A stretch of 62,279 nucleotides of DNA from a virus. Its lineage: Duplodnaviria; Caudoviricetes. The translations under genes and the position numbers were made by a program. Positions 29,936 to 40,545 of this stretch are shown piece by piece. The stretch is taken from the IMG/VR virus record IMGVR_UViG_3300032116_000190, positions 1-62,279 of that record; one strand, given 5' to 3'. The stretch's first letter is position 1; every line of letters starts with the position of its first letter. The notes below the pieces were generated by a model. That model saw only the letters and a list, made by a program, of their open reading frames with translations, was not told where the DNA came from and did no database searches.

Positions 29936-30589
29936 TTAGATTTTAAATGTGAATGCAAAACTAAGCGTGTTATCTTCACGCCAGTCTTTCGTGTACAAGT
30001 CTTGAATTGAAAAACTCGTCTTCTCTGAAAGCTTGTATTTTATTTCTGCTCTATTCTGAATGAAGGTTCTTGAACCCTGCTCAATCAAAAATTGATTGCT
30101 TACAGTAAGCTTCTTGTTTAACTTATGACTAATCCATAAGCTTTCACGAACTACTATGTCGCTATATCCACCTGTACCGTGCTTGTAACCTACACTAAGT
30201 TCATTAGATATTCTAGTTCTATCGTTCTTTACGATTCTAAACCCGTGTCCGATGCTATAAACTACTTGATCTTCTGCAAATGTTCTAGGATCATGTCTAT
30301 AGCGAATACCGACTTGAACATAATGGTCGGGATGAATGTCCTGATTGATCTTAGCAAAAGCGTTGATCTGCTCTCTAGAAGCTACGCCATTACTACTCTT
30401 GTATAGAATGTCACTTTCAAATGAATATTCTCTAGGACCTGTGTCAGTAACATGTTTGAAGGCTCCAGTGAGTACGATGTTATCATCATTGATAATCGTG
30501 CCACCTAACGAACCTGATGTTTCTCTCTCAACCTGTGCATGTGCAGGGAAAGAGAATAGTAATGCTATTGCTAAAATAAGTTTTTTCAT
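29936..30589 (-). CDS. Outer-membrane beta-barrel protein (DUF481-like)
   Basis: Signal peptide AHA-Q, alternating beta strands, C-terminal LSFAFTFKI. Confidence 0.7.
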   Translation of the reverse strand: MKKLILAIALLFSFPAHAQVERETSGSLGGTIINDDNIVLTGAFKHVTDTGPREYSFESDILYKSSNGVASREQINAFAKINQDIHPDHYVQVGIRYRHDPRTFAEDQVVYSIGHGFRIVKNDRTRISNELSVGYKHGTGGYSDIVVRESLWISHKLNKKLTVSNQFLIEQGSRTFIQNRAEIKYKLSEKTSFSIQDLYTKDWREDNTLSFAFTFKI

Positions 30590-30619
30590 TATTGTCTCCC
30601 ACATTACTATTTAGTAATA

Positions 30620-30695
30620 TGGTGCTCTATACAGGAGTCGAACCTGTTATCTCCGGGTTACGAATCCGGCGCATCGCCAGCAATGCTTATAGAGC
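30620..30695 (-). tRNA. tRNA-Thr(CGT)
   Basis: Cloverleaf, CCA. Confidence 0.9.
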
Positions 30696-30709
30696 ATTGA
30701 ATATATTTA

Positions 30710-30889
30710 TAATGGGCCTGTCACCACAACATTGACAGCATTACCGAGAAATTAAAGGGCCCTCTCAGTAGGGTACGTTGTTGAAGTCGTTGTCAGGCGG
30801 TTTCTATGTTGCGTACTTGCACCGTCACCCTTTACAAAGATTCAAACGGCCATTCTAGCCTCTGTGACTATTACTTCCAACACCCATTA
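30710..30889 (-). ncRNA. Candidate ~180-nt structured RNA
   Basis: TAATGGGT...GCCCATTA closing stem with internal stems. Confidence 0.45.
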
Positions 30890-30970
30890 CAAACTTGATG
30901 TAGCGACCCAGCTTCCGTATGTACGTGCGACTTCTGGGATATACCGTACAGCTACGCTACAAACTCTAAA

Positions 30971-31067
30971 TGCAACGTTGGGAATCGAACCCAACTCCTG
31001 GCCTCTTGATGCCTACCCATCCTTCCGGACTCTCGGACTTCCTGTGCTACCATTACACCACGCTGCA
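30971..31067 (-). ncRNA. tRNA scaffold with anticodon arm replaced by GGA-rich insert
   Basis: Acceptor TGCAGCG/CGTTGCA, D arm, T arm TTGGG-TTCGATT-CCCAA, no CCA. Confidence 0.7.
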
Positions 31068-31071
31068 ATAT

Positions 31072-31156
31072 TGGTGCCCCGAGAGGGACTTGAACCCCCA
31101 CGCCCGAAGGCAAAAGATTTTGAGTCTTCCGCGTCTACCGATTCCACCATCGGGGC
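31072..31156 (-). tRNA. tRNA-Leu(CAA)
   Basis: Class II cloverleaf, CCA. Confidence 0.95.
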
Positions 31157-31296
31157 AATAAACTAGGCCCGGGATTGTTATACTGCATACGGGCGGCGCA
31201 GTATCGGTTCAGCAGTTTGGGTTCTATGTTAAGTGACCCTCATAGTGTGCCTTGAAATAACACTCCGGAATGTTATCTCTTCCGATTTCTGAAACT

Positions 31297-31381
31297 TGGT
31301 ACGGATGAAGGGACTCGAACCCCCACGATGTGAATCGCCAGGACCTAAACCTGGTGCGTCTACCAATTCCGCCACATCCGC
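31297..31381 (-). tRNA. tRNA-Leu(TAG)
   Basis: Class II cloverleaf, CCA. Confidence 0.95.
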
Positions 31382-31394
31382 ATGTTAACTCTAT

Positions 31395-31922
31395 TTATAA
31401 CCACCACAATAGACTTTTAGGTAAATCTTGTGGTCTGATCGTATACCATATAGGCAACGTATATCTTAATCCGTTACTAACTTGTGTAACACCATGCTCA
31501 AGTTTATGACCATTATATGCTACAATCCTACCGGGTTTGGGCTGAACTTCAACTCGTTCCCCGTTACTCTTGTTAATAAACGTGTGTCCCCCATCAAAAT
31601 CATCATTAAGATAAAGAACGCTAGTGCAAAGCCCCCATTCACCTGCTTGCATATCAAAGTGAGCCATATGCTCATTCTGCCGGCACTCAATGTGGGCACG
31701 TTGAACCATTAGATTGTCAGGTACATGTTTCATTATAAGAGAAACTTTCTCTTTAATAAAATCATCTACTGGCTTACGTGTATAATGAGGTACAATCGCT
31801 TTGAAAGGATAGTTATATCCGTAATCTGTTCCTAACAGAGAACTTGAGTAATAGTCTATCAAGCTATTACAATCCTCAATGCTCAAAACATCATCAATGA
31901 TTGTTACTTCATCATCAAACAT
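31395..31922 (-). CDS. 2OG-Fe(II) oxygenase
   Basis: HFD..LYLNDDFDGG..HGV..RY. Confidence 0.9.
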   Translation of the reverse strand: MFDDEVTIIDDVLSIEDCNSLIDYYSSSLLGTDYGYNYPFKAIVPHYTRKPVDDFIKEKVSLIMKHVPDNLMVQRAHIECRQNEHMAHFDMQAGEWGLCTSVLYLNDDFDGGHTFINKSNGERVEVQPKPGRIVAYNGHKLEHGVTQVSNGLRYTLPIWYTIRPQDLPKSLLWWL

Positions 31923-31928
31923 AATGTA

Positions 31929-32066
31929 TTTACTCGCCGTGACTCGTATCTCAAATTAAGTCACTGGTAGTCTCTCTCAACTACTGCTACGGCCTTCGGG
32001 TACACTCTCGCTCGGATTGAGAATAGAGCAAGGTCACATACGGCATACCGTACACACACGAGTAAA
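31929..32066 (-). ncRNA. Candidate multibranch RNA
   Basis: TTTACTCGT...GCGAGTAAA closing stem with four internal helices. Confidence 0.5.
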
Positions 32067-32069
32067 ATC

Positions 32070-32145
32070 TGGTGCACGGAGACGGGCTCGAACCGCCGAC
32101 ACTCTGGGCTTCAACCAAATGCTCTACCAACTGAGCTACCCGTGC
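32070..32145 (-). tRNA. tRNA-Phe(GAA)
   Basis: Cloverleaf, CCA. Confidence 0.95.
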
Positions 32146-32159
32146 AAAAATTATCACAA

Positions 32160-32247
32160 TGTCAAAGAGCATAGAGAGCGAAACTAACTAAGACTTTCCG
32201 ACGCTCTCTATGTTCTCTTTATAGCAGGTTCACTATGTTATGTCAAC
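32160..32247 (-). promoter_or_regulatory. Promoter + hairpin + boxA leader
   Basis: TTGACA..GCTATAA, ATAGAGAGCG/CGCTCTCTAT hairpin, TGCTCTTTGACA. Confidence 0.75.
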
Positions 32248-32249
32248 CT

Positions 32250-32876
32250 TTATTTTATACCTGGATCAACCAAACCTAACTGATCAAATGCCCAAGCTCT
32301 TTCATTACACCTATTACACCCATTGCATCTACCATCTATATTGTATACGCAACTATGTGTCAATAGAAAAAGCTGTTCAATATTCAACTTTGTTATCATA
32401 TCAACGACATGTGCCTTTGTCAAATCTTTAAGAGGATTTTTTACAAATTCCTTATCTACAGGAACATATGGAGTAGGAACACCATGCAGTGCATGTTCAG
32501 CTAATATCTTTATATGCCCCATATAAAGTATGTTGCTAGGTTCTTTTAGAACTACACTCATACCTTCTGCTACTTGAAGATTACTATCTGTACTAACTAT
32601 CGGTATGTAGTTGGTAGTTGTTCTGTCAGCTTGCAGCGTATCATGCACGTAGTCTATTACCAACTGTGCATGATTTTTAGAACCATCTTGTCGCTCTAAT
32701 GTGTATGGAGTAACAACGTATCTATCATCTTCTAGTGAAAGCTTTTTCACGAGATAATAGAGCAGTGCGCTATCTAGTCCACCGCTGACTAAAACTGCAA
32801 TTCTTCGTCTAAGTAAAGACAGTTGCAGTTTAAAAGCAGTGTTATCATACAGCAACAATTCTATTTTAGGAGTCAT
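32250..32876 (-). CDS. QueC-like PP-loop protein
   Basis: VSGGLDS..THSC..CNGCNRCNER. Confidence 0.7.
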   Translation of the reverse strand: MTPKIELLLYDNTAFKLQLSLLRRRIAVLVSGGLDSALLYYLVKKLSLEDDRYVVTPYTLERQDGSKNHAQLVIDYVHDTLQADRTTTNYIPIVSTDSNLQVAEGMSVVLKEPSNILYMGHIKILAEHALHGVPTPYVPVDKEFVKNPLKDLTKAHVVDMITKLNIEQLFLLTHSCVYNIDGRCNGCNRCNERAWAFDQLGLVDPGIK

Positions 32877-32917
32877 GTATCTATTTACATTTAGAAACTG
32901 CTGCTGTCAGTATTATT

Positions 32918-32992
32918 TGGTAGCCCGAACGGGTTTCGATCCCGCTTCTTCTCCTTGAAAGGGAGGTATCCTAGCCACTAGACGACCGGGCC
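32918..32992 (-). tRNA. tRNA-Glu(TTC), second copy
   Basis: Body nearly identical to the Glu(CTC) gene at 17035; T-loop ATCGAAA. Confidence 0.9.
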
Positions 32993-32998
32993 ATGTAT

Positions 32999-33074
32999 TG
33001 GTGGAGCCTAAGGGAATCGAACCCTTGACCTTTTGTCTGCCAGACAAACGCTCTCCCAACTGAGCTAAGGCCCC
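32999..33074 (-). tRNA. tRNA-Ala(GGC)
   Basis: Cloverleaf, CCA. Confidence 0.95.
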
Positions 33075-33130
33075 GAATATTTTTACCTGTACGTTTCTGC
33101 TACGTTAAATATCATATAACGGAGAAACGA

Positions 33131-33868
33131 ATGAAAATTGCAGTAGTAAGCACCGGCAGAAGTAGATGCACTTTAGTAGCACTTTATCTGCATGAACTTC
33201 ACCGCGAAACAGAATATTGCAGAGAGTATTATACAGAATTAAATTGGGAAGGCAAATCTGATTTAGTAAGCCTTACCGAAGAACTTATGCAAAAAGAGAA
33301 TTTTGTCATTAAGATAATGTCATGCAATCTTTATGAAGGGTATGACCCATCGGTTTTTAGATTTGAAGAATATGACGAACTTCATCTAATTGAGCGCCAC
33401 GACTTTTTTGAACAAGCATGTAGTTGGCACATAGCGCGCCGAACTAATTTATATCATTTACGAAATGATATAGAAAATAGTGGTGCCAAAGAGTATGATG
33501 GCGTAAGAAAGCTAAGAAGCAAAGTGACCTTAGGCAATATCAAAGAAGGTGCAGAATATGTTGATACATATATTAAGTTTAAGCGTTACATAATAGAGAA
33601 CAATTTAAAATTTACATTGCACACATATGAAAGTGCTAAGGAATTTGATAAGAAGCAAAGCGTTACTGAGGATAGCAATCTTAACTACAATGAACTCATA
33701 ACCAACTATCACTTAAAGGATGAGGTTAATGCATTGTTCAATGAATGCTTTTCATATGAAAACTTAACCAGCGATTTAGTAACATTTAAACGAAAAGTCA
33801 GTGAAGTGAAAGGACTTCGTTCTCTACAAAGCTTTGCAAACAAAATGACTAAAGTTTGGAATGAGTGA
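33131..33868 (+). CDS. Sulfotransferase-fold-like hypothetical protein
   Basis: STGRSRCT..ERHDFFEQACSW..YE. Confidence 0.5.
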   Translation: MKIAVVSTGRSRCTLVALYLHELHRETEYCREYYTELNWEGKSDLVSLTEELMQKENFVIKIMSCNLYEGYDPSVFRFEEYDELHLIERHDFFEQACSWHIARRTNLYHLRNDIENSGAKEYDGVRKLRSKVTLGNIKEGAEYVDTYIKFKRYIIENNLKFTLHTYESAKEFDKKQSVTEDSNLNYNELITNYHLKDEVNALFNECFSYENLTSDLVTFKRKVSEVKGLRSLQSFANKMTKVWNE

Positions 33869-34014
33869 GGGTTCCCAATCAATCATCGCATAAGCGGCTT
33901 TTTTACAGCTATACCCACAACGCTCTAACCTCTTAAACTCTCGGGGGAGTTGCACTGTCCCCCTTCCTCCACAAAGCTATTGTGCAACGCTTCATAGAGA
34001 GTACCTCTTTAACC

Positions 34015-34090
34015 TGGTCGGGAAGACAGGGATTGAACCTGCGACCTCGGCGTCCCGAACGCCGCGCTCTCCCACCTGAGCTACTTCCCG
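34015..34090 (-). tRNA. tRNA-Pro(CGG)
   Basis: Cloverleaf, CCA. Confidence 0.95.
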
Positions 34091-34243
34091 TTGTTATTCT
34101 TTAATCTATCAAATGCACGTTTCATCCGTGCTTTAGTTTCTTCTGCTTCTTTACCTTTGAGAACCTTTACGCCCTCAAACACACGGTTACTCGTGTAGTT
34201 GCTAAAGTCGGGTAAATCAGACTTCATAATGATTTCCTTTAAG

Positions 34244-34320
34244 TGGTCGGGGTAGCCGGATTTGAACCGACGACCACTTGTCCCCCAGACAAGTGCGCTA
34301 CCAGGCTGCGCTATACCCCG
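34244..34320 (-). tRNA. tRNA-Pro(GGG)
   Basis: Cloverleaf, CCA. Confidence 0.95.
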
Positions 34321-34326
34321 TTGAAA

Positions 34327-34392
34327 TGGCCGCCCGCATTATGTTTCATGCTACTAGAACCATATAAACAGTATGTCATAGCAGCGCAGGCG
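34327..34392 (-). ncRNA. CCA-ended armless tRNA-like RNA
   Basis: CGCCTGC/GCGGGCG-G-CCA acceptor, one internal stem, A-rich linker. Confidence 0.55.
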
Positions 34393-34403
34393 ATAAGTTA
34401 AAA

Positions 34404-34501
34404 ATGCAGTTTAGGCGGGCGGGATTCGAACCCGCAAGGGCCAGTTGCGAAACCGGCGTGTCTATCCACTTCCACCACCGTAACGTTCGTCTAAACTGCA
34501 T
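34404..34501 (-). ncRNA. tRNA-like RNA with extended closing stem and no CCA
   Basis: ATGCAGTTTAGACG/CGCCTAAACTGCAT; D arm; GCCGG-TTTCGCAA-CTGGC; T arm. Confidence 0.7.
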
Positions 34502-34506
34502 AATAT

Positions 34507-34596
34507 TGGCGGAGTCGGTGGGATTTGAACCCACGGTACCCTTGCAGGTACAACACCTTTCCAGGGTGTCACAATCGGCCGCTCTGTCACGACTCC
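34507..34596 (-). tRNA. tRNA-Ser(GGA)
   Basis: Class II cloverleaf, CCA. Confidence 0.95.
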
Positions 34597-34607
34597 AACT
34601 GTTTAGC

Positions 34608-35168
34608 TTAGTATGGATAAATCCATTTTTTATTCTTGAGTTTTGCTTGAATGTTAGGATGCTCTACTACCATCTTAATAGATGATTTTTGCCAAGAGGG
34701 TAATTTACTCTTAGGGTCCTTCAGTTTCTTAGCAGAATTAATAAACTTATGTGATAGATTCCATAAGTTATTTCCGCCGCCTTTACCATGTAAGAAGCCA
34801 AACAATTTTACATACCCATGAAGAACAACGTGACAATCGTGACACAACTGCACTAAATCCTCATACCTTTCGTTGCCGTAGTATCGCTTATAGGTGTGAT
34901 GATGTAGTTGTAGAGCGGAATCTACGCAGTGACAAAGTTCGCATTTAGCAGTTTTATTATTTTTAAAATAAATTGACCACCACCATTTCTTCTTAGCTAC
35001 CCATTCGGTACTTTTTAAATATGCAAATCGTTTGGGGGTATCAAGAAGAATAGTAATATCAGTGTCGTTTTTTGTTCGCCATACCTTAGATGATAGAATC
35101 CTAGGGCGATTGGCGCCTTTCTTTTCGCTGATTAGGGCTTCTCTTAGTTTTTTTAGCTTATCTGACAT
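34608..35168 (-). CDS. HNH-like endonuclease
   Basis: CELC..LQLHHHTY..E..DLVQLCHDCH..H. Confidence 0.8.
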   Translation of the reverse strand: MSDKLKKLREALISEKKGANRPRILSSKVWRTKNDTDITILLDTPKRFAYLKSTEWVAKKKWWWSIYFKNNKTAKCELCHCVDSALQLHHHTYKRYYGNERYEDLVQLCHDCHVVLHGYVKLFGFLHGKGGGNNLWNLSHKFINSAKKLKDPKSKLPSWQKSSIKMVVEHPNIQAKLKNKKWIYPY

Positions 35169-35187
35169 TCATCTATTTACATTGATA

Positions 35188-35251
35188 TGGCGCGCCCGCT
35201 ATTTTTCTATACTGGGGCTACTTTCGGAAGGTAGTCCATACATACGGGCGC
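35188..35251 (-). ncRNA. CCA-ended armless tRNA-Arg(CCG)-like RNA
   Basis: GCGCCCG/CGGGCGC-G-CCA; hairpin loop CTTCCGAAA; no D or T arm. Confidence 0.6.
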
Positions 35252-35317
35252 ATAAGAAGGGGGCAGCGGTAACGTTTGTTCGTCACTATTGTAGTGGGTA
35301 TCACTCGCCGCCATAAG

Positions 35318-35509
35318 TTAAATTCCGAGAAACTGCATTACTAGCTTGAAGGGCCAGACATGTTCCCAGAGAAAGTGTTCTAGTGGATAGCTGATAGTTA
35401 CGCCAATCCAAAATCTATAATCAGTAATCAAATTTGAACACGAATTCATACAACGAACTAACAGTCCAGTCTTCTTATCTTCGTGATAATGAGGTTCTTG
35501 CAATGGCAT
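35318..35509 (-). CDS. Small hypothetical membrane protein
   Basis: 63-aa ORF with AGGA RBS. Confidence 0.6.
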   Translation of the reverse strand: MPLQEPHYHEDKKTGLLVRCMNSCSNLITDYRFWIGVTISYPLEHFLWEHVWPFKLVMQFLGI

Positions 35510-35525
35510 AAATTATCCTTAAAAA

Positions 35526-35600
35526 TGGTACACCCTATCTGGTTTGAACAGATGACCTTCGCTGAGTCAAAGCGATGCTCTACCGCTGAGCTAAGGGTGC
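35526..35600 (-). tRNA. tRNA-Val(GAC)
   Basis: Cloverleaf, unusual T37-C38, CCA. Confidence 0.9.
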
Positions 35601-35607
35601 ATGAAAC

Positions 35608-35683
35608 TGGGGTGAAGGAGGAGGATCGAACTCCCGACATGCGGTACCACAAACCGCCGCTCTACCACTGAGCTACCGACACC
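35608..35683 (-). tRNA. tRNA-His(GTG) with G-1:C73
   Basis: G-GTGTCGG...CCTTCAC-C-CCA; two acceptor mismatches. Confidence 0.9.
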
Positions 35684-35688
35684 ATAAT

Positions 35689-35762
35689 TGGCATACCCTG
35701 TAGGAGTCGAACCCACGCTGCCTGGGTTGGAACCAGGAGTGCTACCGTAACACTTAGGGCAT
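35689..35762 (-). tRNA. tRNA-Trp(CCA), second copy
   Basis: Cloverleaf, CCA. Confidence 0.9.
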
Positions 35763-35767
35763 ATGAA

Positions 35768-35818
35768 TGGCTGTAACGCAAGTATGGGCCATTGACGAAC
35801 AATGAAGCATTGGTTACA
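35768..35818 (-). ncRNA. CCA-ended mini RNA
   Basis: TGTAAC/GTTACA-G-CCA; CATTG-TTCGT-CAATG. Confidence 0.45.
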
Positions 35819-35847
35819 ATTTAAACGGGACACGTACCATAAGAAAC

Positions 35848-35922
35848 TGGCTGACTAAGTAGGACTCGAACCTACATAACCTTCGTTAACAGCGAAGTGC
35901 ATTACCATTATGCTATTAGCCA
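35848..35922 (-). tRNA. tRNA-Asn(GTT), second copy
   Basis: Cloverleaf, CCA. Confidence 0.9.
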
Positions 35923-35992
35923 ATGAAACTGAATGTGTCTTAGCCCCACCGCGCATGACACTGAATATGGCGCCGGTCCATATTCCCCCAAC

Positions 35993-36069
35993 TGGTGCAA
36001 CCAAAAGGACTTGAACCTTTAACCTTCGGTTTCGTAGACCGATGCTCTATCCAGTTGAGCTATGGCTGC
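35993..36069 (-). tRNA. tRNA-Arg(ACG)
   Basis: Cloverleaf, CCA. Confidence 0.95.
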
Positions 36070-36077
36070 GTGATATT

Positions 36078-36154
36078 TGGTGGTCCCTGAGGGATTCGAA
36101 CCCCCGACATTCTGTTTCGAAGACAGACGCTCTATCCAGCTGAACTAAGGAACC
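36078..36154 (-). tRNA. tRNA-Arg(TCG)
   Basis: Cloverleaf, CCA. Confidence 0.95.
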
Positions 36155-36164
36155 AAATAAGAAA

Positions 36165-36240
36165 TGGTGCTGTTGGAGAGGATTGAACTCTCGACCTCTT
36201 CATTACCAATGAAGTGCTACTACCACTGAGCTACAACAGC
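36165..36240 (-). tRNA. tRNA-Thr(GGT)
   Basis: Cloverleaf, CCA. Confidence 0.95.
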
Positions 36241-36247
36241 ATTAATT

Positions 36248-36323
36248 TGGATGCCCCGCCAGGGCTCGAACCTGGAACCTGCGGAATCAAAATCCGACGT
36301 GCTACCAATTGCACCACGGGGCA
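36248..36323 (-). tRNA. tRNA-Gln(TTG)
   Basis: Cloverleaf, CCA. Confidence 0.95.
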
Positions 36324-36339
36324 GTGTTAACTTGTGCGT

Positions 36340-36368
36340 ATTATATATGCTTAACGAAGCACTGTCAA
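36340..36368 (-). promoter_or_regulatory. Consensus sigma70 promoter inside the tRNA array
   Basis: TTGACA-17-TATAAT. Confidence 0.8.
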
Positions 36369-36374
36369 ATATTT

Positions 36375-36448
36375 TGGATGCCCTCCAAGGACTTGAACCT
36401 TGATTGACGGAGTCAGAGTCCGCTCTCTTACCATTAGAGGAAAGGGCA
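36375..36448 (-). tRNA. tRNA-Gln(CTG)
   Basis: Cloverleaf, CCA. Confidence 0.95.
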
Positions 36449-36795
36449 ATGAAACATCAATTACTAAAGAACACTTGAGGCACAGTCAGATTCGCAGTCT
36501 GGTGCGGTGTATTCTTCTCTCATGTTCTTAAATAATGTATGTGTATAACAAGATGTGTGGTCTTCACGGGCACCCCCACTGGGTGTCGGCACTGTTTTGT
36601 AAATCTTGATATAGGTTAGCCTTTTGTTGATAAGCGATCTATGTTGTCTGGCATTTCAGACTTGACCGCTTATAGAGGATCACTATGTCCTCTACTGAAA
36701 GTTTTTACTCTCTGCGTTCTCTCCGCAGATTTCATCCCTATCACCGCCCCTTCTTTTTTTATAGTGCTTTGCAGGCTCGTTCCGACTTGCACTGT

Positions 36796-36831
36796 AAAAG
36801 GAAAACCCCAAGAACTTTATCGTCCCCGGGG
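36796..36831 (-). terminator. Intrinsic terminator (putative attenuator)
   Basis: CCCCGGGGAC-GATAAA-GTTCTTGGGG-TTTTCCTTTT. Confidence 0.75.
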
Positions 36832-36861
36832 CCTAAATAAACTAGTTTATACTATGTCTAC

Positions 36862-37002
36862 TTATCCACCGGGCACTTGTTCCAATGATGGGGTAAAGTC
36901 GCCGCGAATGCTTGTATTATACGCTGCCACGACCATACCCATAGGAGCTAATTGTCCCCAAAGTGTATGCTGTTTCAGCGATATGTTACAAGTGTTAGTC
37001 AT
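36862..37002 (-). CDS. Putative 46-aa leader peptide containing all 20 amino acids
   Basis: MTNTCNISLKQHTLWGQLAPMGMVVAAYNTSIRGDFTPSLEQVPGG*; between promoter and terminator. Confidence 0.6.
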   Translation of the reverse strand: MTNTCNISLKQHTLWGQLAPMGMVVAAYNTSIRGDFTPSLEQVPGG

Positions 37003-37097
37003 AGTAAAGTTATTTAGTCCTGGTTTAAATTATGCTCATTTAAAGGGTGTTTTTGGCGATTTCTGCTAAAACAACACTTCTCATCAACACAATCACT

Positions 37098-37126
37098 CTT
37101 ATATATCATTCAAAATCGTTTGTCAA
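37098..37126 (-). promoter_or_regulatory. Sigma70 promoter heading the RNA array
   Basis: TTGACA-17-TATAAG. Confidence 0.75.
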
Positions 37127-37144
37127 GAAAAAAATCACCACATG

Positions 37145-37327
37145 TCAATTTTTATTTTCTTTTTCGCTTAGGTCACCGAACGATGCTGAATATAGGCACA
37201 CAAACACAAGAATGTATGCGAAGATAAACGAACCCCATGGGTTAATAGCATGGGGCCAAATGTTCAACCAGGCGCCGACCGCCATACCGAACAGAAAGCG
37301 AGTGCGATTAGAAATAGTCCTAGACAT
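37145..37327 (-). CDS. Small membrane protein
   Basis: Two hydrophobic segments, GGAG RBS. Confidence 0.6.
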   Translation of the reverse strand: MSRTISNRTRFLFGMAVGAWLNIWPHAINPWGSFIFAYILVFVCLYSASFGDLSEKENKN

Positions 37328-37496
37328 TTGTTTGACTCCGTTTTCTCAGCGTATGATTTACACTACACTAGTTTTGGATATATGTCAACCGATCATTGTG
37401 TGAAAAAAGACCAAAACAGAAAAAAAGATAAATAAAGTTGCGGATCACGATGTTACGAGCATCCACCCGCTCTAACGCTACAGAGGAGCATCAGCT

Positions 37497-38024
37497 ATGT
37501 GTATTTATTGTGGTACAAAGAAGTACCGTAAAATATATGAAAATCATCACGGACCCATCCCAAGAGACGAGTACGGTAGAAAATATGATATCCACCACAT
37601 TGATGGAAATCATTCAAACAATGATCCTATGAATCTCAAAGCAGTCACAATCAATGAACACTATGATATTCACTATAGCCAAGGTGACTACGGTGCCTGC
37701 ATTTTAATCTCCCGTAAGATGAACTTTACATCCGAAGAGTTAGCCCATCTTGCAGGTCTCTCTGCTAAAAAGAGGGTGCAAGAGGGAACACATCCTTTTC
37801 TAGGAGGTGCGGTTCAACGAGAGGTAGCACAAAAACTGCTCAAGGCCGGTACTCATCCTTTTCTTGGCGGAACAATACAAAGAAACCTAGCTTATAGATT
37901 AGTTGCGGAAGGTACACATCCTTCTCAAAAAGTTTGGGAATGCCCCTACTGCGGTAAAGTAGGGAAGGGTAAAGGTAACTACACACGGCACCACGGTGAT
38001 AGCTGTAAGATGGCACAAATATGA
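37497..38024 (+). CDS. HNH homing endonuclease with GTHPF repeats
   Basis: DIHHIDGNHSNNDPMNL..EH..IH; C-terminal CPYC. Confidence 0.9.
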   Translation: MCIYCGTKKYRKIYENHHGPIPRDEYGRKYDIHHIDGNHSNNDPMNLKAVTINEHYDIHYSQGDYGACILISRKMNFTSEELAHLAGLSAKKRVQEGTHPFLGGAVQREVAQKLLKAGTHPFLGGTIQRNLAYRLVAEGTHPSQKVWECPYCGKVGKGKGNYTRHHGDSCKMAQI

Positions 38025-38581
38025 ACTTTGACTCTTTCTCTCACGGACAAATCCAAAGCAAAGTCTGGCTTTGCAAAGAACTTGAACGATTCGTACACGC
38101 CAACCTAAAAATTGCTATTTTAGGTAGCTGGTACAATCTCGTTGCGTTTATGCTTCTTACACGGAACGCAGACAGATATCAATACATTTTGGGCATAGAC
38201 ATTGACCCAGAGACAAAACCAATCGCAGACAAGATCACAGAAGCTTGGCGAATTGGTAGTGATTATAAGGTTGAGAACAAAATAGCAGATGCGAACCTTG
38301 AAAATTTGGCAGGCTACGACCTTATAATCAACTGCTCACCCGAGCATATGGACGGTAATGATTGGTTTGAGAATCTTGATTATGGCACTATGGTCTGTAT
38401 TCAGTCTAGTGACGTTCAGACTAGCGACGATGATGTTTGGAAGTGCGTAAATCCAAACGAGAGTTTGGAAGATTTGGTACTAAAATACCCGTTGTCTAAG
38501 TATCTTTACTCCGGAGAGAAGGAGATCAGATATAGCGAAAACAACGGGTACAAGCGTTTTATGCTAATCGGTATTAAATAA
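38021..38581 (+). CDS. Class I SAM-methyltransferase-like protein
   Basis: ILGSWY..IDID..IINCSPEHM. Confidence 0.65.
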   Translation: MNFDSFSHGQIQSKVWLCKELERFVHANLKIAILGSWYNLVAFMLLTRNADRYQYILGIDIDPETKPIADKITEAWRIGSDYKVENKIADANLENLAGYDLIINCSPEHMDGNDWFENLDYGTMVCIQSSDVQTSDDDVWKCVNPNESLEDLVLKYPLSKYLYSGEKEIRYSENNGYKRFMLIGIK

Positions 38582-39011
38582 CACACTTGCCGATTGCAGG
38601 AATCAATCTAGCGATTCGCTTTACTGCATCAAGCTTATATTCTTCTACGCCGGCAGCAGATAGATTATTTGTGATATCTGACACTCGGATATTCAACACA
38701 TGAGCAATAGCTAAAGTGTATAGTGTAGGATTGTCCACAACATCGGAATTGTCAATCATAAGATCAATGACTGTTTTGGCAATATCCTCTCTGATTTCAG
38801 TTCCGCGTAGAGTATCGCTCATCGCAATTTCAAACGCAAGTTCTCCGTTTTCGGTGGCGATAGCTGCTCCTAAAGCACATGCATGAGCATCAATATCATC
38901 AAGCACTTGCTCGGTCATAGCGACTTCAATTTGCTTGCCTAACTCATTGGCGTATTCAGGCAAGCTAACTGTTAATGTATTGACCCAATTTCTATTAAGT
39001 GAGATTGTCAT
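38574..39011 (-). CDS. Degenerate AhpD-like protein
   Basis: LPEYA..HACALGAAIA; no CxxC. Confidence 0.55.
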   Translation of the reverse strand: MTISLNRNWVNTLTVSLPEYANELGKQIEVAMTEQVLDDIDAHACALGAAIATENGELAFEIAMSDTLRGTEIREDIAKTVIDLMIDNSDVVDNPTLYTLAIAHVLNIRVSDITNNLSAAGVEEYKLDAVKRIARLIPAIGKCVI

Positions 39012-39012
39012 A

Positions 39013-39432
39013 TTATCGTGTCCTTCTAGCTAATTGCTGGTACCCACGCCCTGTTGGGTGGTATCTATCTGCCATTGGGCGGGGAATAGTAAGGATAGCA
39101 TCACCGTTTGCTGTAGCAATGCTATCAATTGATGTTTGAATAATTGAAATGTTTGCACCGCTGCTAGGGTTAACTGCTGCGGGAACAATCCAAATTACTC
39201 GGCGGGCATTAATTCTAGAACGTAAAACAGAAAGCTGTTCGTAAGTATCCGTGTATCTATGATCGTTTGTACCTAAGCTGATAACTACAGTGTTTGCGTC
39301 TAGTTGAGTTGTTCTATAATGTCTATTGAATTGTTGACTGTTCCAACCAACGTGGGCATACTCAACACATTCTGGTCTATAATTAGCAATACCCTGAGCA
39401 ATGCTATCACCGATAATCAAACACTCTAACAT
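39013..39432 (-). CDS. SGNH/GDSL hydrolase
   Basis: GDSI, LGTND, DRYHP. Confidence 0.85.
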   Translation of the reverse strand: MLECLIIGDSIAQGIANYRPECVEYAHVGWNSQQFNRHYRTTQLDANTVVISLGTNDHRYTDTYEQLSVLRSRINARRVIWIVPAAVNPSSGANISIIQTSIDSIATANGDAILTIPRPMADRYHPTGRGYQQLARRTR

Positions 39433-39483
39433 GATACATCCTTTAATGATATGTTGGAAGGGACCAAAGTCCCTTCCATTGGA

Positions 39484-40545
39484 TCACAGCGCAAGGTGAC
39501 TGTAATCGTAAAGTGCCTTATCCTTGACACGGGTCAGGATGAGACGGGCGCCCTTGCTTTCAAAGACAAACTTACCTTCCTGACTGTTCAGGTTGATAAG
39601 ATTTTCAGGAGTAAAGCGAAGGTCCTTCCACTCTGCTTCATCATCGTTAGGATCAGTGTCATATTCAATGTTGACACCCTTGACGGCAAGCGGGTTGCCT
39701 CGCCAAATCTCAGGGGAGACAGAGGAGATTTCCCTTCCACCGTCAATCAACTTGATTTCGTACTTAGCACCTTCATCATACTCGGGCTTGGCGTTGAGCA
39801 TTTCAAGTGCTTCCGTCGGAGTCTCACCGTAACGATTCATTTCTTCAACAAGCGCCTTAAGCATGTCAAAGTTGAATTCACCAAACAAGCTAGTGAGTGA
39901 ACAAATCTGATCAATGTACTGCTTGTTGTTGAGGTTATCTTCACAGTACTCACGAATGAAGTTAACGTCAAGACCCTTGAAGTCAAGCAGGTAGAAGATA
40001 CGACCAGGACGATTACGCATGTGCGAGTCAACCCGCCACTTGTCATTCACAGTGAGAACATACAGCTTCTTAGAACCGAACACGCCGTCAAGCAGAGTAA
40101 GAATTTCTTCCTGCTTTTCGCGGTCATAGACCTTCTCAAATTCGTCAAAGAGAACGACACACGGCTGGTCAATGTCCTGCAACAGCTTGAAGAAGCCATC
40201 ACCAGTCCAATCACGATTGATAACAATCGTAGGGACACCCTGCTTAGCAAGTTCAACAGAAATGTTCTTAGCAAGAAGCGTCTTACCAGAACCCTTTTCA
40301 CCGTTCAACAGAACACCGGTCTGCTGCGGACGGTCCCAAAAGCTATTGATAATGCGATCCGTGTGTCGCAGGGTATTACCATACATCTTAGCAGGAATCT
40401 CAAAGCTATCAATCTGCTCAAGATAGAAGTTGCCCATCATATCTACAGCAACAGTGTAGTTGCCTGCAGGAAGCTGCTCATGCAAATCCATTGCCTCCTT
40501 GCTGGAAACACGGAAAGTAGTACCATTCTTCAAAAAGTATGCCAT
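39484..40545 (-). CDS. AAA+ ATPase
   Basis: GEKGSGKT, FDEFEK, RPGR. Confidence 0.9.
   Translation of the reverse strand: MAYFLKNGTTFRVSSKEAMDLHEQLPAGNYTVAVDMMGNFYLEQIDSFEIPAKMYGNTLRHTDRIINSFWDRPQQTGVLLNGEKGSGKTLLAKNISVELAKQGVPTIVINRDWTGDGFFKLLQDIDQPCVVLFDEFEKVYDREKQEEILTLLDGVFGSKKLYVLTVNDKWRVDSHMRNRPGRIFYLLDFKGLDVNFIREYCEDNLNNKQYIDQICSLTSLFGEFNFDMLKALVEEMNRYGETPTEALEMLNAKPEYDEGAKYEIKLIDGGREISSVSPEIWRGNPLAVKGVNIEYDTDPNDDEAEWKDLRFTPENLINLNSQEGKFVFESKGARLILTRVKDKALYDYSHLAL

What the first reader, a model, noticed from the sequence alone, without database searches (positions are those of the whole stretch)
36796..37126. Candidate pan-codon attenuator: all-20-amino-acid leader peptide gating the phage tRNA/ncRNA array
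Seen: promoter (37098-37126), a 46-codon ORF (37002-36862) with all 20 amino acids and 37 distinct codons (Leu CTG/CTT/TTA/TTG matching the four Leu tRNAs; both Gln; ATA and ATT; three each of Pro, Ala, Thr, Gly, Ser), then an intrinsic terminator, then the RNA array. The start region CCAGG-A-CTAAATAA..TACTATG complements CATAGTA..TTATTTAG-G-CCCCGG after the stop, overlapping the terminator's 5' arm. Known: classical attenuators sense one amino acid through codon runs. Inference: a ribosome reaching the stop masks the 3' strand and termination occurs; a stall at almost any internal codon frees both strands and gives read-through, so loss of any tRNA switches on replacements. Caveats: AGGA is ~15 nt from the ATG, and internal promoters (36368, 32247, 27732 and others) drive most tRNAs independently.
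Basis: partly seen in the sequence, partly recalled or inferred. Interest (0 to 1): 0.9.

Follow-up and report, generated by a model that had tools for sequence, protein, structure and literature searches.

The report
Phage leader peptide using all twenty amino acids
A giant phage carries, ahead of an unknown structured RNA and its tRNA genes, a short conserved reading frame that keeps one or more of every amino acid and is wired to a transcription stop signal like a classical attenuator, which could let the phage sense a shortage of any charged tRNA.

Summary
The ORF at 37002-36862(-) has 46 codons, all 20 amino acids and 37 distinct codons. It lies between a sigma70-like promoter and an intrinsic terminator.

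Relatives in IMG/VR jumbo phages keep the whole unit, and the frame stays open in every one. In the 45-50-codon class, 22 of 27 unique peptides from loci have all 20 amino acids. So do 40 of 48 further database homologues. The rest lack one kind, nearly always Cys. Rare residues relocate instead of disappearing. A tree-based simulation gives 4-7 of 24 all-20 tips, against 19 observed.

The terminator's 5' arm finds its best upstream partner at the last sense codons and stop codon in 23 of 26 lineages, with different sequences. This is an antiterminator that a terminating ribosome would melt. It mostly coexists with the terminator.

The unit directly gates a conserved, Rfam-less ~180-nt RNA. 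Most tRNAs have their own promoters. Metatranscriptome contigs start just below the promoter and run through the terminator.

Verdict: probably a translation-coupled attenuator with a selected one-of-each-amino-acid leader. The regulatory logic is inferred, not shown.

The parts
37098..37126 (-). sigma70-like promoter: TTGACA (37126-37121), 17-nt spacer, TATAAG (37103-37098)
   Evidence: Sequence. The -35 hexamer is invariant and the -10 conserved in relatives. RNA contigs begin 15-21 nt downstream of the -10.
37077..37083 (-). apparent 5' end of the RNA in metatranscriptome contigs
   Evidence: Contigs of X16 and X18 stop at 37077. The X17 contig stops at 37083 and runs into what I recall as Illumina adapter sequence. 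None of the 4 runs covers 37128-37400.
   Evidence: Inverted repeats I8 and I11; MFE fold; duplex dG -12.6 against shuffles -6.7+-2.4. The AGGA lies 13-15 nt from the ATG, whereas 25 of 29 SD-bearing long ORFs have 3-8 nt.
36862..37002 (-). leader ORF: 46 codons plus TAA, all 20 amino acids, 37 distinct codons
   Evidence: The frame stays open in all relatives. pN/pS is 0.321/0.490, with pN<pS in 263 of 276 pairs; the control frames give about 0.9-1.0.
36856..36876 (-). region 2: GTGCCCGGTGGATAAGTAGAC, the last four sense codons, the stop and 6 nt; 5' strand of the antiterminator
   Evidence: In the fold of the segment, 9 of 12 nt of the 5' arm pair here (z -3.0). It is the best duplex partner of the 5' arm in a 242-nt scan (dG -16.1).
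36833..36856 (-). region 3a: the spacer CATAGTATAAACTAGTTTATTTAG, which can pair with region 1 or with region 2
36796..36833 (-). intrinsic terminator: 5' arm GGCCCCGGGGAC (36833-36822), loop, 3' arm GTTCTTGGGGTT (36815-36804), tail TTCCTTTT (36803-36796)
   Evidence: Scan; covariation; stop-to-stem distance of 24-34 nt in the relatives.
36614..36793 (-). conserved structured ncRNA of unknown family: P1 hairpin with the invariant CGGAACGAGNCTGC (36784-36771), then a multibranch domain
   Evidence: Alignment. RNAalifold gives 43 pairs, 13 of them with compensatory changes. No Rfam match. There are 62 IMG/VR stretches carrying the motif and one copy per genome in 5 of 5 records. RNA contigs cover it.
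36375..36448 (-). tRNA-Gln(CUG), the first tRNA of the array and the only one before the next promoter
36340..36368 (-). internal promoter, TTGACA-17-TATAAT, matching 12 of 12

Best explanation
The unit is a ribosome-mediated transcription attenuator at the head of a jumbo phage's RNA-gene array.

Shown: a sigma70-type promoter starts an RNA at about 37083. The RNA carries a 46-codon leader ORF. The last codons, the stop codon and the next few bases (region 2) can pair with the spacer and the terminator's 5' arm (region 3) to form an antiterminator hairpin. Alternatively the 5' arm pairs with the 3' arm to form an intrinsic terminator. This happens just before a conserved ~180-nt structured RNA and the first tRNA.

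Inferred mechanism: a ribosome that reaches the end of the ORF while RNA polymerase is transcribing region 3-4 melts region 2, so the terminator forms. A ribosome held up earlier in the ORF, or no ribosome at all, leaves region 2 free, so the antiterminator forms and transcription reads through.

In the core clade the start region (region 1) is a second partner for region 3. It would report whether the start site is occupied, and it closes the start codon afterwards.

The leader has been kept with at least one codon for each of the 20 amino acids. On this reading, a lack of almost any charged tRNA slows the pioneer ribosome and switches on the phage's RNA genes. The cause could be host shut-off, starvation or tRNA-cleaving defence.

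Shown: the anatomy, its conservation, the all-20 constraint and transcription through the terminator. Inferred: translation of the ORF, the direction of control, and what the signal is.
For: 1. Synteny. Promoter, ORF, hairpin with T-run and ncRNA recur in IMG/VR relatives at 68-92% nucleotide identity. The distance from stop codon to terminator stem is 24-34 nt in both the 45-50-codon and the ~30-codon classes.

2. Coding signs. ATG and frame are kept in 27 of 27 unique long leaders and 9 of 9 short ones. The other two frames carry 1-6 stops. pN/pS is 0.66, with pN<pS in 263 of 276 pairs; control frames give 150 and 119 of 276.

3. Antiterminator.
- The 5' arm pairs with codons at -2 to -16 from the stop in 31 of the 36 distinct folds listed. 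Four others also reach further into the ORF, and in one (L030) my script picked the wrong hairpin.
- The best partner of the 5' arm lies at the ORF end in 23 of 26 lineages scanned over 160-250 nt.
- This holds with seven different arm sequences, for example CCCGG.GG/CCCCGGGG, UAGGGUCCU/AGGACCCUA, GAGGUUUAAGUAU/AUACUUAAACCUU and GGAGGG/CCCUCC.

4. Terminator covariation.

5. All-20 constraint.
- 22 of 27 unique peptides from loci have all 20 kinds; the other 5 lack only Cys.
- 40 of 48 further homologues have all 20; 7 lack Cys and 1 lacks His.
- The independent-draw expectation is 2-4%, or 10-16% even for a uniform composition.
- Given the conserved residues, P(all 20) is at most 0.024 for L012, 0.044 for L086, 0.059 for L099, 0.032 for L136 and 0.10 for L092. 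All five have 20 kinds.
- The tree simulation gives a mean of 3.8-7.2 all-20 tips of 24, against 19 observed; 0-5 of 400 runs reach 19.
- Relocations: W in L012; K, D and E in several lineages; Cys at three different positions in P0053, P0054 and P0055.

6. Synonymous-codon diversity is above genome-usage expectation in 14 of 18 lineages at P<0.05, with a mean z of 1.8.

7. Relatives without a leader have a promoter about 45 nt upstream of the ncRNA. So in leader-bearing phages the ncRNA depends on read-through. No promoter-like site lies between ORF and ncRNA.

8. RNA contigs from 4 metatranscriptome runs of 4 studies begin at 37077-37083. In 3 of the 4 runs a single contig bridges the terminator into the ncRNA. 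Nothing covers 37128-37400.
Against: - No experiment bears on translation or on regulation.
- The SD-like AGGA lies 13-15 nt from the ATG. Of the 29 long ORFs in the window that have an SD-like site, 25 place it 3-8 nt away.
- Most amino acids occur once. Classical attenuators use codon runs, so sensitivity to mild starvation should be low (established knowledge of trp and his).
- Some singletons (E, D, K, W, I, C) sit 5-7 codons from the stop, where a stalled ribosome would itself cover region 2. Only 12 of 18 lineages keep 20 kinds outside the last 5 codons, and only 4 of 18 outside the last 8.
- Cys is missing in two lineages. One of them (contig of L053/L111) does encode tRNA-Cys.
- The ~30-codon leaders have only 13-14 kinds, which is average for their length (14.9+-1.4), and some phages have no leader. 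So all-20 is not needed for the architecture.
- On a fixed-column alignment the antiterminator does not covary significantly: 13 of 500 shuffles reach the cells paired, and 129 of 500 reach the covariation score.
- In 9 of 21 decision-point folds the 5' arm prefers the start region.
- The L053 clade has a poor U-tract, GGGTTAACC.
- In 3 of 4 RNA runs one contig runs across the terminator, so termination may be weak.
- Internal consensus promoters feed most tRNAs.
Confidence: 0.55

Rival explanations
1. It is an attenuator, or a general sensor of translation coupling, but the all-20 make-up is not what is sensed. The leader reports overall ribosome speed or availability. The amino-acid diversity is kept for another reason, or by a constraint I did not model.
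For: The same anatomy works with leaders of 29-32 codons and 13-14 kinds, and with a 19-codon one. Several singleton residues lie in the zone where a stall would not free region 2. There are no codon runs. Cys is dispensable although the phage has a tRNA-Cys.
Against: All 20 kinds are retained far above tree-aware expectation, and rare residues relocate. Synonymous diversity is also raised. I could not think of another constraint that demands one of each amino acid.
Confidence: 0.2
2. One reading: the helix between the start region and the post-stop spacer, reaching into the terminator's 5' arm, is the antiterminator. A ribosome at the stop codon masks its 3' strand.
For: The helix is present in the MFE. 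It is stronger than shuffles at 0.02 or less in 10 of 13 core lineages. Changes around the AUG:CAU pairing look compensatory in L090, L110, L092 and L091 (and sequences). In 9 of 21 decision-point folds the 5' arm pairs with the pre-start CCAGG.
Against: The helix is absent in L009/L013/L011, L086, L099, L136 and in 7 of 7 short-leader lineages, all of which keep the ORF-end antiterminator. In the window it coexists with the full terminator, and the decision-point fold there uses the ORF end. On a fixed-column alignment it shows no significant covariation.
Confidence: 0.1
3. It is an ordinary small phage gene. The 46-residue peptide has a function of its own, the gene has its own terminator, and the pairing with the ORF end and the amino-acid make-up are incidental.
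For: The peptide has conserved positions: Y28, T30, R33 and F36 are invariant, and Q11, H12, L14, W15 and G45 nearly so. pN/pS is below 1. Gene callers annotate it as a hypothetical protein.
Against: Purifying selection is weak (0.66). L086, L099 and L136 keep the architecture and all 20 kinds with almost no sequence likeness. The C-terminal codons track the terminator arm sequence. There is no Pfam or PHROG family. The ncRNA downstream has no promoter of its own.
Confidence: 0.1
4. The ORF is not translated. The whole ~480-nt transcript (37083 to about 36600) is one stable structured RNA, and the open frame is a by-product.
For: RNA contigs cover leader and ncRNA as one piece in 3 of 4 runs. 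In L002 a 400-nt block from the ATG to about 36600 is 100% identical, while the flanks are 87-94% identical. The Shine-Dalgarno spacing is poor.
Against: The frame is kept through indels in every relative, while the other frames hold 1-6 stops. There is an excess of third-position changes and pN<pS only in this frame. The ATG is invariant. An all-20 constraint has meaning only for a translated frame.
Confidence: 0.05

Closest known systems
Leader-peptide transcription attenuators of amino-acid operons (trp, his, leu, thr, phe, ilvGMEDA of enterobacteria)
   Same: A promoter-proximal short ORF and an intrinsic terminator. An alternative hairpin shares the terminator's 5' arm. The stop codon and last codons lie in the strand that a ribosome would melt. 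The distance from stop codon to terminator is conserved.
   Different: There are no runs of one codon; instead there is at least one codon of all 20 amino acids. The leader is long (45-50 codons). The unit is encoded by a phage, and the controlled genes are a structured RNA and tRNA rather than biosynthetic enzymes. A second competitor strand lies at the start codon. The ilv leader, which as I recall senses three amino acids, is the nearest idea of multivalent sensing.
pyrBI-type attenuator (44-codon leader, coupling of ribosome to polymerase; recalled, not tested here)
   Same: A long leader ORF of about 45 codons. The read-out is how closely the ribosome follows the polymerase, not one cognate amino acid.
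   Different: In pyrBI the leader ORF runs through the terminator, so the ribosome blocks the hairpin directly. Here the stop codon lies 24-34 nt before the stem and an antiterminator hairpin is used.
T-box riboswitches
   Same: In the proposed reading, a cis-acting leader that senses tRNA charging and acts through terminator/antiterminator choice.
   Different: A T-box binds one uncharged tRNA directly and has no ORF. There is no Rfam T-box match here.
Phage tRNA clusters with co-encoded stable RNAs (T4 tRNA region with RNA C and D; GOLLD RNA next to phage tRNAs)
   Same: A stable non-coding RNA sits with a phage tRNA array. A GOLLD RNA is present in relative L124 and a permuted tmRNA in L086.
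   Different: The RNA here matches no Rfam family. I know of no leader ORF or attenuator described for those clusters. My four literature searches aimed at this question found none. A fifth search, on non-coding RNAs beside jumbo-phage tRNAs, returned nothing.

Membership tests
Ribosome-mediated (leader-peptide) transcription attenuator | Short translatable ORF directly downstream of the promoter | tested here: inconclusive
   The ORF, the ATG and the frame are conserved in all relatives, and pN<pS only in this frame. But the SD-like motif lies 13-15 nt from the ATG, and there is no ribosome data.
Ribosome-mediated (leader-peptide) transcription attenuator | Intrinsic terminator (GC-rich hairpin plus U-tract) between the leader ORF and the controlled genes | tested here: met
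   Scan hit at 36834-36803. Covariation: 0 of 500 shuffles reach it. Present in the leader-bearing relatives, although my script mis-picked the hairpin in L030/L031. The U-tract is weak in the L053 clade.
Ribosome-mediated (leader-peptide) transcription attenuator | Mutually exclusive antiterminator that uses the terminator's 5' arm | tested here: met
   Per-sequence folds. The best partner lies at the ORF end in 23 of 26 lineages, with seven arm types. The fixed-column covariation test is not significant.
Ribosome-mediated (leader-peptide) transcription attenuator | The ribosome's position on the leader decides which hairpin forms (stop or regulatory codons lie inside a competing strand) | tested here: met
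   By geometry only. The stop codon and the last 4-5 codons lie in the antiterminator's 5' strand. The start codon lies in the second competitor strand in the core clade.
Ribosome-mediated (leader-peptide) transcription attenuator | Run of codons for the amino acid that is sensed | tested here: not met
   There is no run. Nine amino acids occur once in the window's leader, and all 20 kinds are present.
Ribosome-mediated (leader-peptide) transcription attenuator | Read-through responds to translation of the leader | not testable with these tools
   RNA contigs only show that transcripts cross the terminator.
pyrBI-type coupling attenuator | The leader ORF overlaps the terminator hairpin | tested here: not met
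   The stop codon lies 24-34 nt upstream of the stem.
Known RNA families (T-box, tmRNA, RNase P, GOLLD, ROOL, 6S and the rest of Rfam 15) | Covariance-model match of the leader or of the downstream RNA | tested here: not met
   No match other than tRNAs reaches its family's gathering score over 30000-40000 (E up to 1) or 36440-37150 (E up to 10). In 8 relatives' loci no match lies at the unit.

The most novel reading that the evidence does not exclude
A phage-encoded universal sensor of aminoacyl-tRNA supply. The leader holds one of each amino acid. Its pioneer ribosome must pass a codon for every amino acid before it can trigger termination. Loss of any single tRNA species then switches on a dedicated structured RNA and adds transcription into the phage's own tRNA array. 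Such loss could come, for example, from host anticodon nucleases or from phage-induced shut-off. The unknown ~180-nt RNA would be the first effector of that response.
Probability: 0.4. Interest if true: 0.95.

Novelty: new variant of a known kind. Interest (0 to 1): 0.85.

Why it matters
Classical attenuators each read one amino acid, or a few. A leader selected to contain every amino acid would be a new design principle: a single cis element that reports the state of the whole tRNA pool, or of translation as such.

It would link two current topics, the role of large phage tRNA arrays and host defences that cleave tRNAs. It would also give a function to test for a widespread, unnamed phage RNA.

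The constraint 'keep all twenty' is unusual in itself. It acts on the composition of a peptide rather than on its sequence, and can be tested directly in a reconstituted translation system.

Tried and rejected
- No DNA match in 50,697 phage records. tblastn of the peptide there gave only hits at E>=1.
- Pfam and PHROGs gave nothing for the leader peptide or for the 60-aa ORF upstream.
- Rfam gave nothing for the unit.
I went through neighbouring genes and DNA motifs instead.
- The idea that leaders lacking Cys belong to phages lacking tRNA-Cys is rejected. L111, on the same contig as L053, has tRNA-Cys. The other contigs are too short to judge.
The register differs between clades, so I relied on per-sequence folds and scans.
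- The contig depths (18.5 upstream against 4-7 downstream in X17) cannot be used as a measure of attenuation.
- I looked for a known identity of the ncRNA (tmRNA-like, RNase P-like and SRP-like resemblances recalled from memory). None was borne out by Rfam.
- Five literature searches found no description of such a leader or of this RNA. I saw only listings and the starts of abstracts, opened no paper, and saw no supplements.
- Two motif hits (L122, L143) lie in what look like coding regions without the hairpin context. I dropped them. L141 lacks upstream sequence and was also dropped.

Full report
**Context.** The window is a 62-kb fragment of an uncultured virus record, with a CheckV completeness estimate of about 16%. 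Relatives include a 360,683-bp genome with terminal repeats, so this is a jumbo phage. All 44 tRNA genes lie on the minus strand between 12403 and 36448 and cover all 20 amino acids. The finding sits immediately upstream of that array. The genes further upstream on the same strand are an AAA ATPase, a GDSL-like hydrolase and two unknowns. An HNH endonuclease and a 186-aa ORF lie on the other strand.

**The observation.** The ORF at 37002-36862(-) has 46 sense codons, all 20 amino acids and 37 distinct codons.
- The promoter is TTGACA-17-TATAAG at 37126-37098. The scan missed it only because its rule needs a T at the end of the -10 hexamer.
- The terminator at 36834-36803 was found by the scan.
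- The complementarity between the start region and the post-stop region is real.
- Within this one window the composition is unusual but not decisive. All 20 kinds together with 37 or more codons occur in 0.27% of random-nucleotide ORFs and in 1 of 72 small ATG ORFs.

**Relatives.** Public phage records hold nothing similar. IMG/VR does.
- I reached relatives through a neighbouring gene, the ATPase and a motif of the downstream RNA.
- blastn showed that the stretch from about 37139 to 36614 is conserved at 68-92% identity in some twenty loci.
- The alignment shows an invariant -35 hexamer, a conserved -10 and a conserved ATG context. It also shows an open frame, a hairpin with a T-run and a very conserved downstream RNA.
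- One close relative (L002) is 100% identical over 400 nt from the ATG to about 36600, while its flanks are 87-94% identical. Other relatives differ freely in that block, so I read this as recent exchange, not absolute constraint.

**Three forms of the locus**.
- Class 1, the window's class: a 45-50-codon leader, with 27 unique peptides.
- Class 2: a leader of 29-32 codons, or 19 in L125, with 9 unique peptides. Its consensus is ..KHMF..SI.KCREYR.G.SEGYGG.
- Class 3: no leader at all, and a sigma70-like promoter about 45 nt upstream of the RNA (5 distinct loci).

In classes 1 and 2 the stop codon lies 24-34 nt before the terminator stem. Class 3 shows that the RNA is driven from an upstream promoter. 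In the leader-bearing forms the only recognisable promoter lies upstream of the ORF. The RNA there must therefore come from read-through.

**Is the ORF translated?** There is only indirect evidence.
- ATG and frame are kept in every relative, through indels, while the other two frames hold 1-6 stops each.
- Differences fall 29%, 32% and 38% on codon positions 1, 2 and 3.
- pN/pS is 0.321/0.490, with pN<pS in 263 of 276 pairs. The two control frames give 150 and 119 of 276. The alignment was built on peptides, which favours the real frame a little.
- Against translation: the AGGA is 13-15 nt from the ATG. Of the 29 long ORFs in the window with an SD-like site, 25 have it 3-8 nt away.
- Gene callers have predicted the peptide many times, always as hypothetical. 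Pfam and PHROGs know no family for it.

**The alternative structures.**
- I folded the RNA from 15 codons before the stop to the end of the terminator's 5' arm. This is what exists before the 3' arm is made. A long imperfect hairpin forms, in which the 5' arm pairs with the last sense codons and the spacer pairs with the stop-codon region. The 5' arm's partners lie between -2 and -16 from the stop in 31 of the 36 distinct folds listed. Four others also reach further into the ORF, and in one (L030) my script picked the wrong hairpin. The z-scores run from -1.3 to -5.5, apart from +0.27 for L030.
- I scanned each whole leader (160-250 nt) for the best duplex partner of the 5' arm. It falls at the ORF end in 23 of 26 lineage representatives. 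In the other three it is second best.
- The pairing sequences differ between clades: CCCGG.GG with CCCCGGGG, UAGGGUCCU with AGGACCCUA, GAGGUUUAAGUAU with AUACUUAAACCUU, and GGAGGG with CCCUCC. The complementarity is therefore maintained, not merely inherited.
- On one fixed-column alignment the terminator covaries clearly. The antiterminator does not reach significance, because its register shifts between clades.

- It is strong in the core clade: dG -8.8 to -24.4, and beyond shuffles at 0.02 or less in 10 of 13 lineages. Changes around AUG:CAU in L090, L110, L092 and L091 look compensatory.
- It is absent from L009/L013/L011, L086, L099, L136 and from all 7 short-leader lineages tested.
- In the window it coexists with the terminator in the MFE.
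- At the decision point the 5' arm pairs with the ORF end in 12 of 21 lineages and with the pre-start CCAGG in 9 of 21. With the full transcript the terminator forms in 19 of 21.
- So region 3 has two upstream competitors, one at the stop codon and one at the start codon. A ribosome can cover both.

**All twenty amino acids.**
- In class 1, 22 of 27 unique peptides have all 20 kinds and 5 lack only Cys.
- Independent draws give 2.4% with genome composition, 2.0% with family composition and 10% with uniform composition at 46 residues.
- I held the majority-consensus residues fixed and redrew the rest. The chance of all 20 is then at most 0.024 (L012), 0.044 (L086), 0.059 (L099), 0.032 (L136) and 0.10 (L092). 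All five have 20. For the others the chance is 0.1-0.47.
- I simulated evolution along a FastTree tree of the 24 alignable peptides, with per-site rates set from parsimony counts. The mean is 3.8-7.2 all-20 tips, against 19 observed. Between 0 and 5 of 400 runs reach 19. The three unalignable peptides were left out of that test, and all three have 20.
- As an out-of-sample check, a profile search of 5.8 billion proteins gave 56 homologues. Of these, 48 were not among my loci, and 40 of the 48 have all 20. Seven lack Cys and one lacks His. I trimmed N-terminal extensions called from an upstream in-frame ATG before counting.
- Rare residues move instead of vanishing. W goes to the C-terminus in L012. 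K, D and E shift in several clades. P0053, P0054 and P0055 carry their only Cys at three different positions.
- Given each peptide, the number of distinct codons exceeds genome-usage expectation at P<0.05 in 14 of 18 lineages. The mean z is 1.8, and L009, L099, L092 and L136 are the exceptions. Against uniform synonymous choice the excess is weaker.
- Class 2 leaders have 13-14 kinds, average for their length.

**Points against a perfect pan-codon sensor.**
- Singleton residues at 5-7 codons from the stop lie where a stalled ribosome would itself cover region 2. Only 12 of 18 lineages keep 20 kinds outside the last five codons, and only 4 of 18 outside the last eight.
- One Cys-less lineage still encodes tRNA-Cys.
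- Single codons should respond poorly to mild starvation, though well to loss of a tRNA.
- The array has internal promoters at 36368 (12/12), 32423 and 27732 (11/12) and others. The unit therefore directly controls the ncRNA and tRNA-Gln(CUG) and only adds to the rest.

**The gated RNA.** The stretch 36793-36614 folds into a P1 hairpin with the invariant loop region CGGAACGAGNCUGC and a multibranch domain. RNAalifold finds 43 pairs, 13 with compensatory changes. It matches no Rfam family. It occurs once per genome in 5 of 5 records searched. Its function is unknown.

**Expression.** Four freshwater metatranscriptome runs from four studies hold contigs of this locus.
- The contigs are 36560-37077 (no differences), 36603-37077, 36476-37023, and in X17 three pieces, of which 36876-37083 ends in what I recall as Illumina adapter.
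- None of the four runs covers 37128-37400.
- This fits an RNA that starts just below the promoter and crosses the terminator into the ncRNA.
- Contigs cannot give levels, ends or strand, and they say nothing about regulation.

**Comparison and verdict.** The anatomy meets the structural criteria of leader-peptide attenuators, but lacks codon runs and biosynthetic targets. My searches found no description of a leader holding every amino acid, or of an attenuator ahead of phage RNA genes. I saw listings and the starts of abstracts only. I file it as a new variant of a known kind. I put about 0.55 on the full reading, which is an attenuator plus selected all-20 sensing. I put roughly 0.75 on an attenuator of some kind.

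Noticed in passing
window 36614-36793 (-): A conserved structured RNA of unknown family lies directly after the terminator. It has a P1 hairpin with the invariant CGGAACGAGNCTGC and then a multibranch domain; 13 of 43 pairs show compensatory changes. It has no Rfam match and occurs once per genome in 5 of 5 relatives' records.
   Followed up: partly
window 36600-37005 versus L002:1150-1560: A 400-nt block (ORF, terminator and ncRNA) is 100% identical to a relative whose flanks are 87-94% identical. This suggests recent exchange of the whole unit.
   Followed up: partly
window 37497-38024 (+): An HNH homing-type endonuclease (PF13392, phrog_12324) lies on the opposite strand. It and the 60-aa ORF at 37145-37327 are missing at this place in L002, so this looks like a mobile insertion next to the unit.
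   Followed up: partly
L119, L123, L124, L129, L130, L132, L135, L137, L139 (leader about 80 nt upstream of the motif): More distant phages have a 29-32-codon leader (..KHMF..SI.KCREYR.G.SEGYGG) with the same antiterminator/terminator design but only 13-14 amino-acid kinds. L125 has a 19-codon leader with 16 kinds.
   Followed up: partly
L120, L121, L127/L131/L133, L138, L140: These phages have the same RNA but no leader or terminator. A sigma70-like promoter lies about 45 nt upstream. Their RNA carries a variable insert, in some loci with T-loop-like GGTTCGA elements, inside a long closing stem.
   Followed up: no
L012:2157-2231, L053:6120-6194, L031:981-1056, L091:1454-1528, L108:718-792, L030:6121-6196: tRNA genes with anticodon CUA, called 'Pyl' by ARAGORN and so amber-suppressor-like, lie 4-9 kb upstream of the leader in several relatives. 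None was called in the window.
   Followed up: no
L124:9422-9892 (-); L086:11505-11828 (-): There is a GOLLD RNA (198.6 bits) in one relative and a permuted tmRNA (71.7 bits) in another, both inside the tRNA arrays and several kb from the leader unit.
   Followed up: no
L012, L017, L037 and database forms of 58-73 aa (e.g. P0005, P0038): An in-frame ATG 12 codons upstream (M[HR][YC][FL]KPGLNK.T) extends the leader in some relatives. In L017 and L037 this extension supplies the otherwise missing Cys. In the window the corresponding ATG (about 37039-37037) runs into a stop after four codons.
   Followed up: partly
window 36544-36613 (-): A long hairpin (inverted repeat I9, arms 36544-36554 and 36603-36613) encloses a GC-rich stem between the ncRNA and tRNA-Gln. 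It is variable among relatives and could be a processing or termination site.
   Followed up: no
window 36950-36960 (-), codons L14-W15-G16: CUUUGGGGAC, and its counterpart in relatives, is the second-best partner of the terminator's 5' arm. It is the best partner in L019, L012 and L110, so it could be a further alternative pairing inside the ORF.
   Followed up: no
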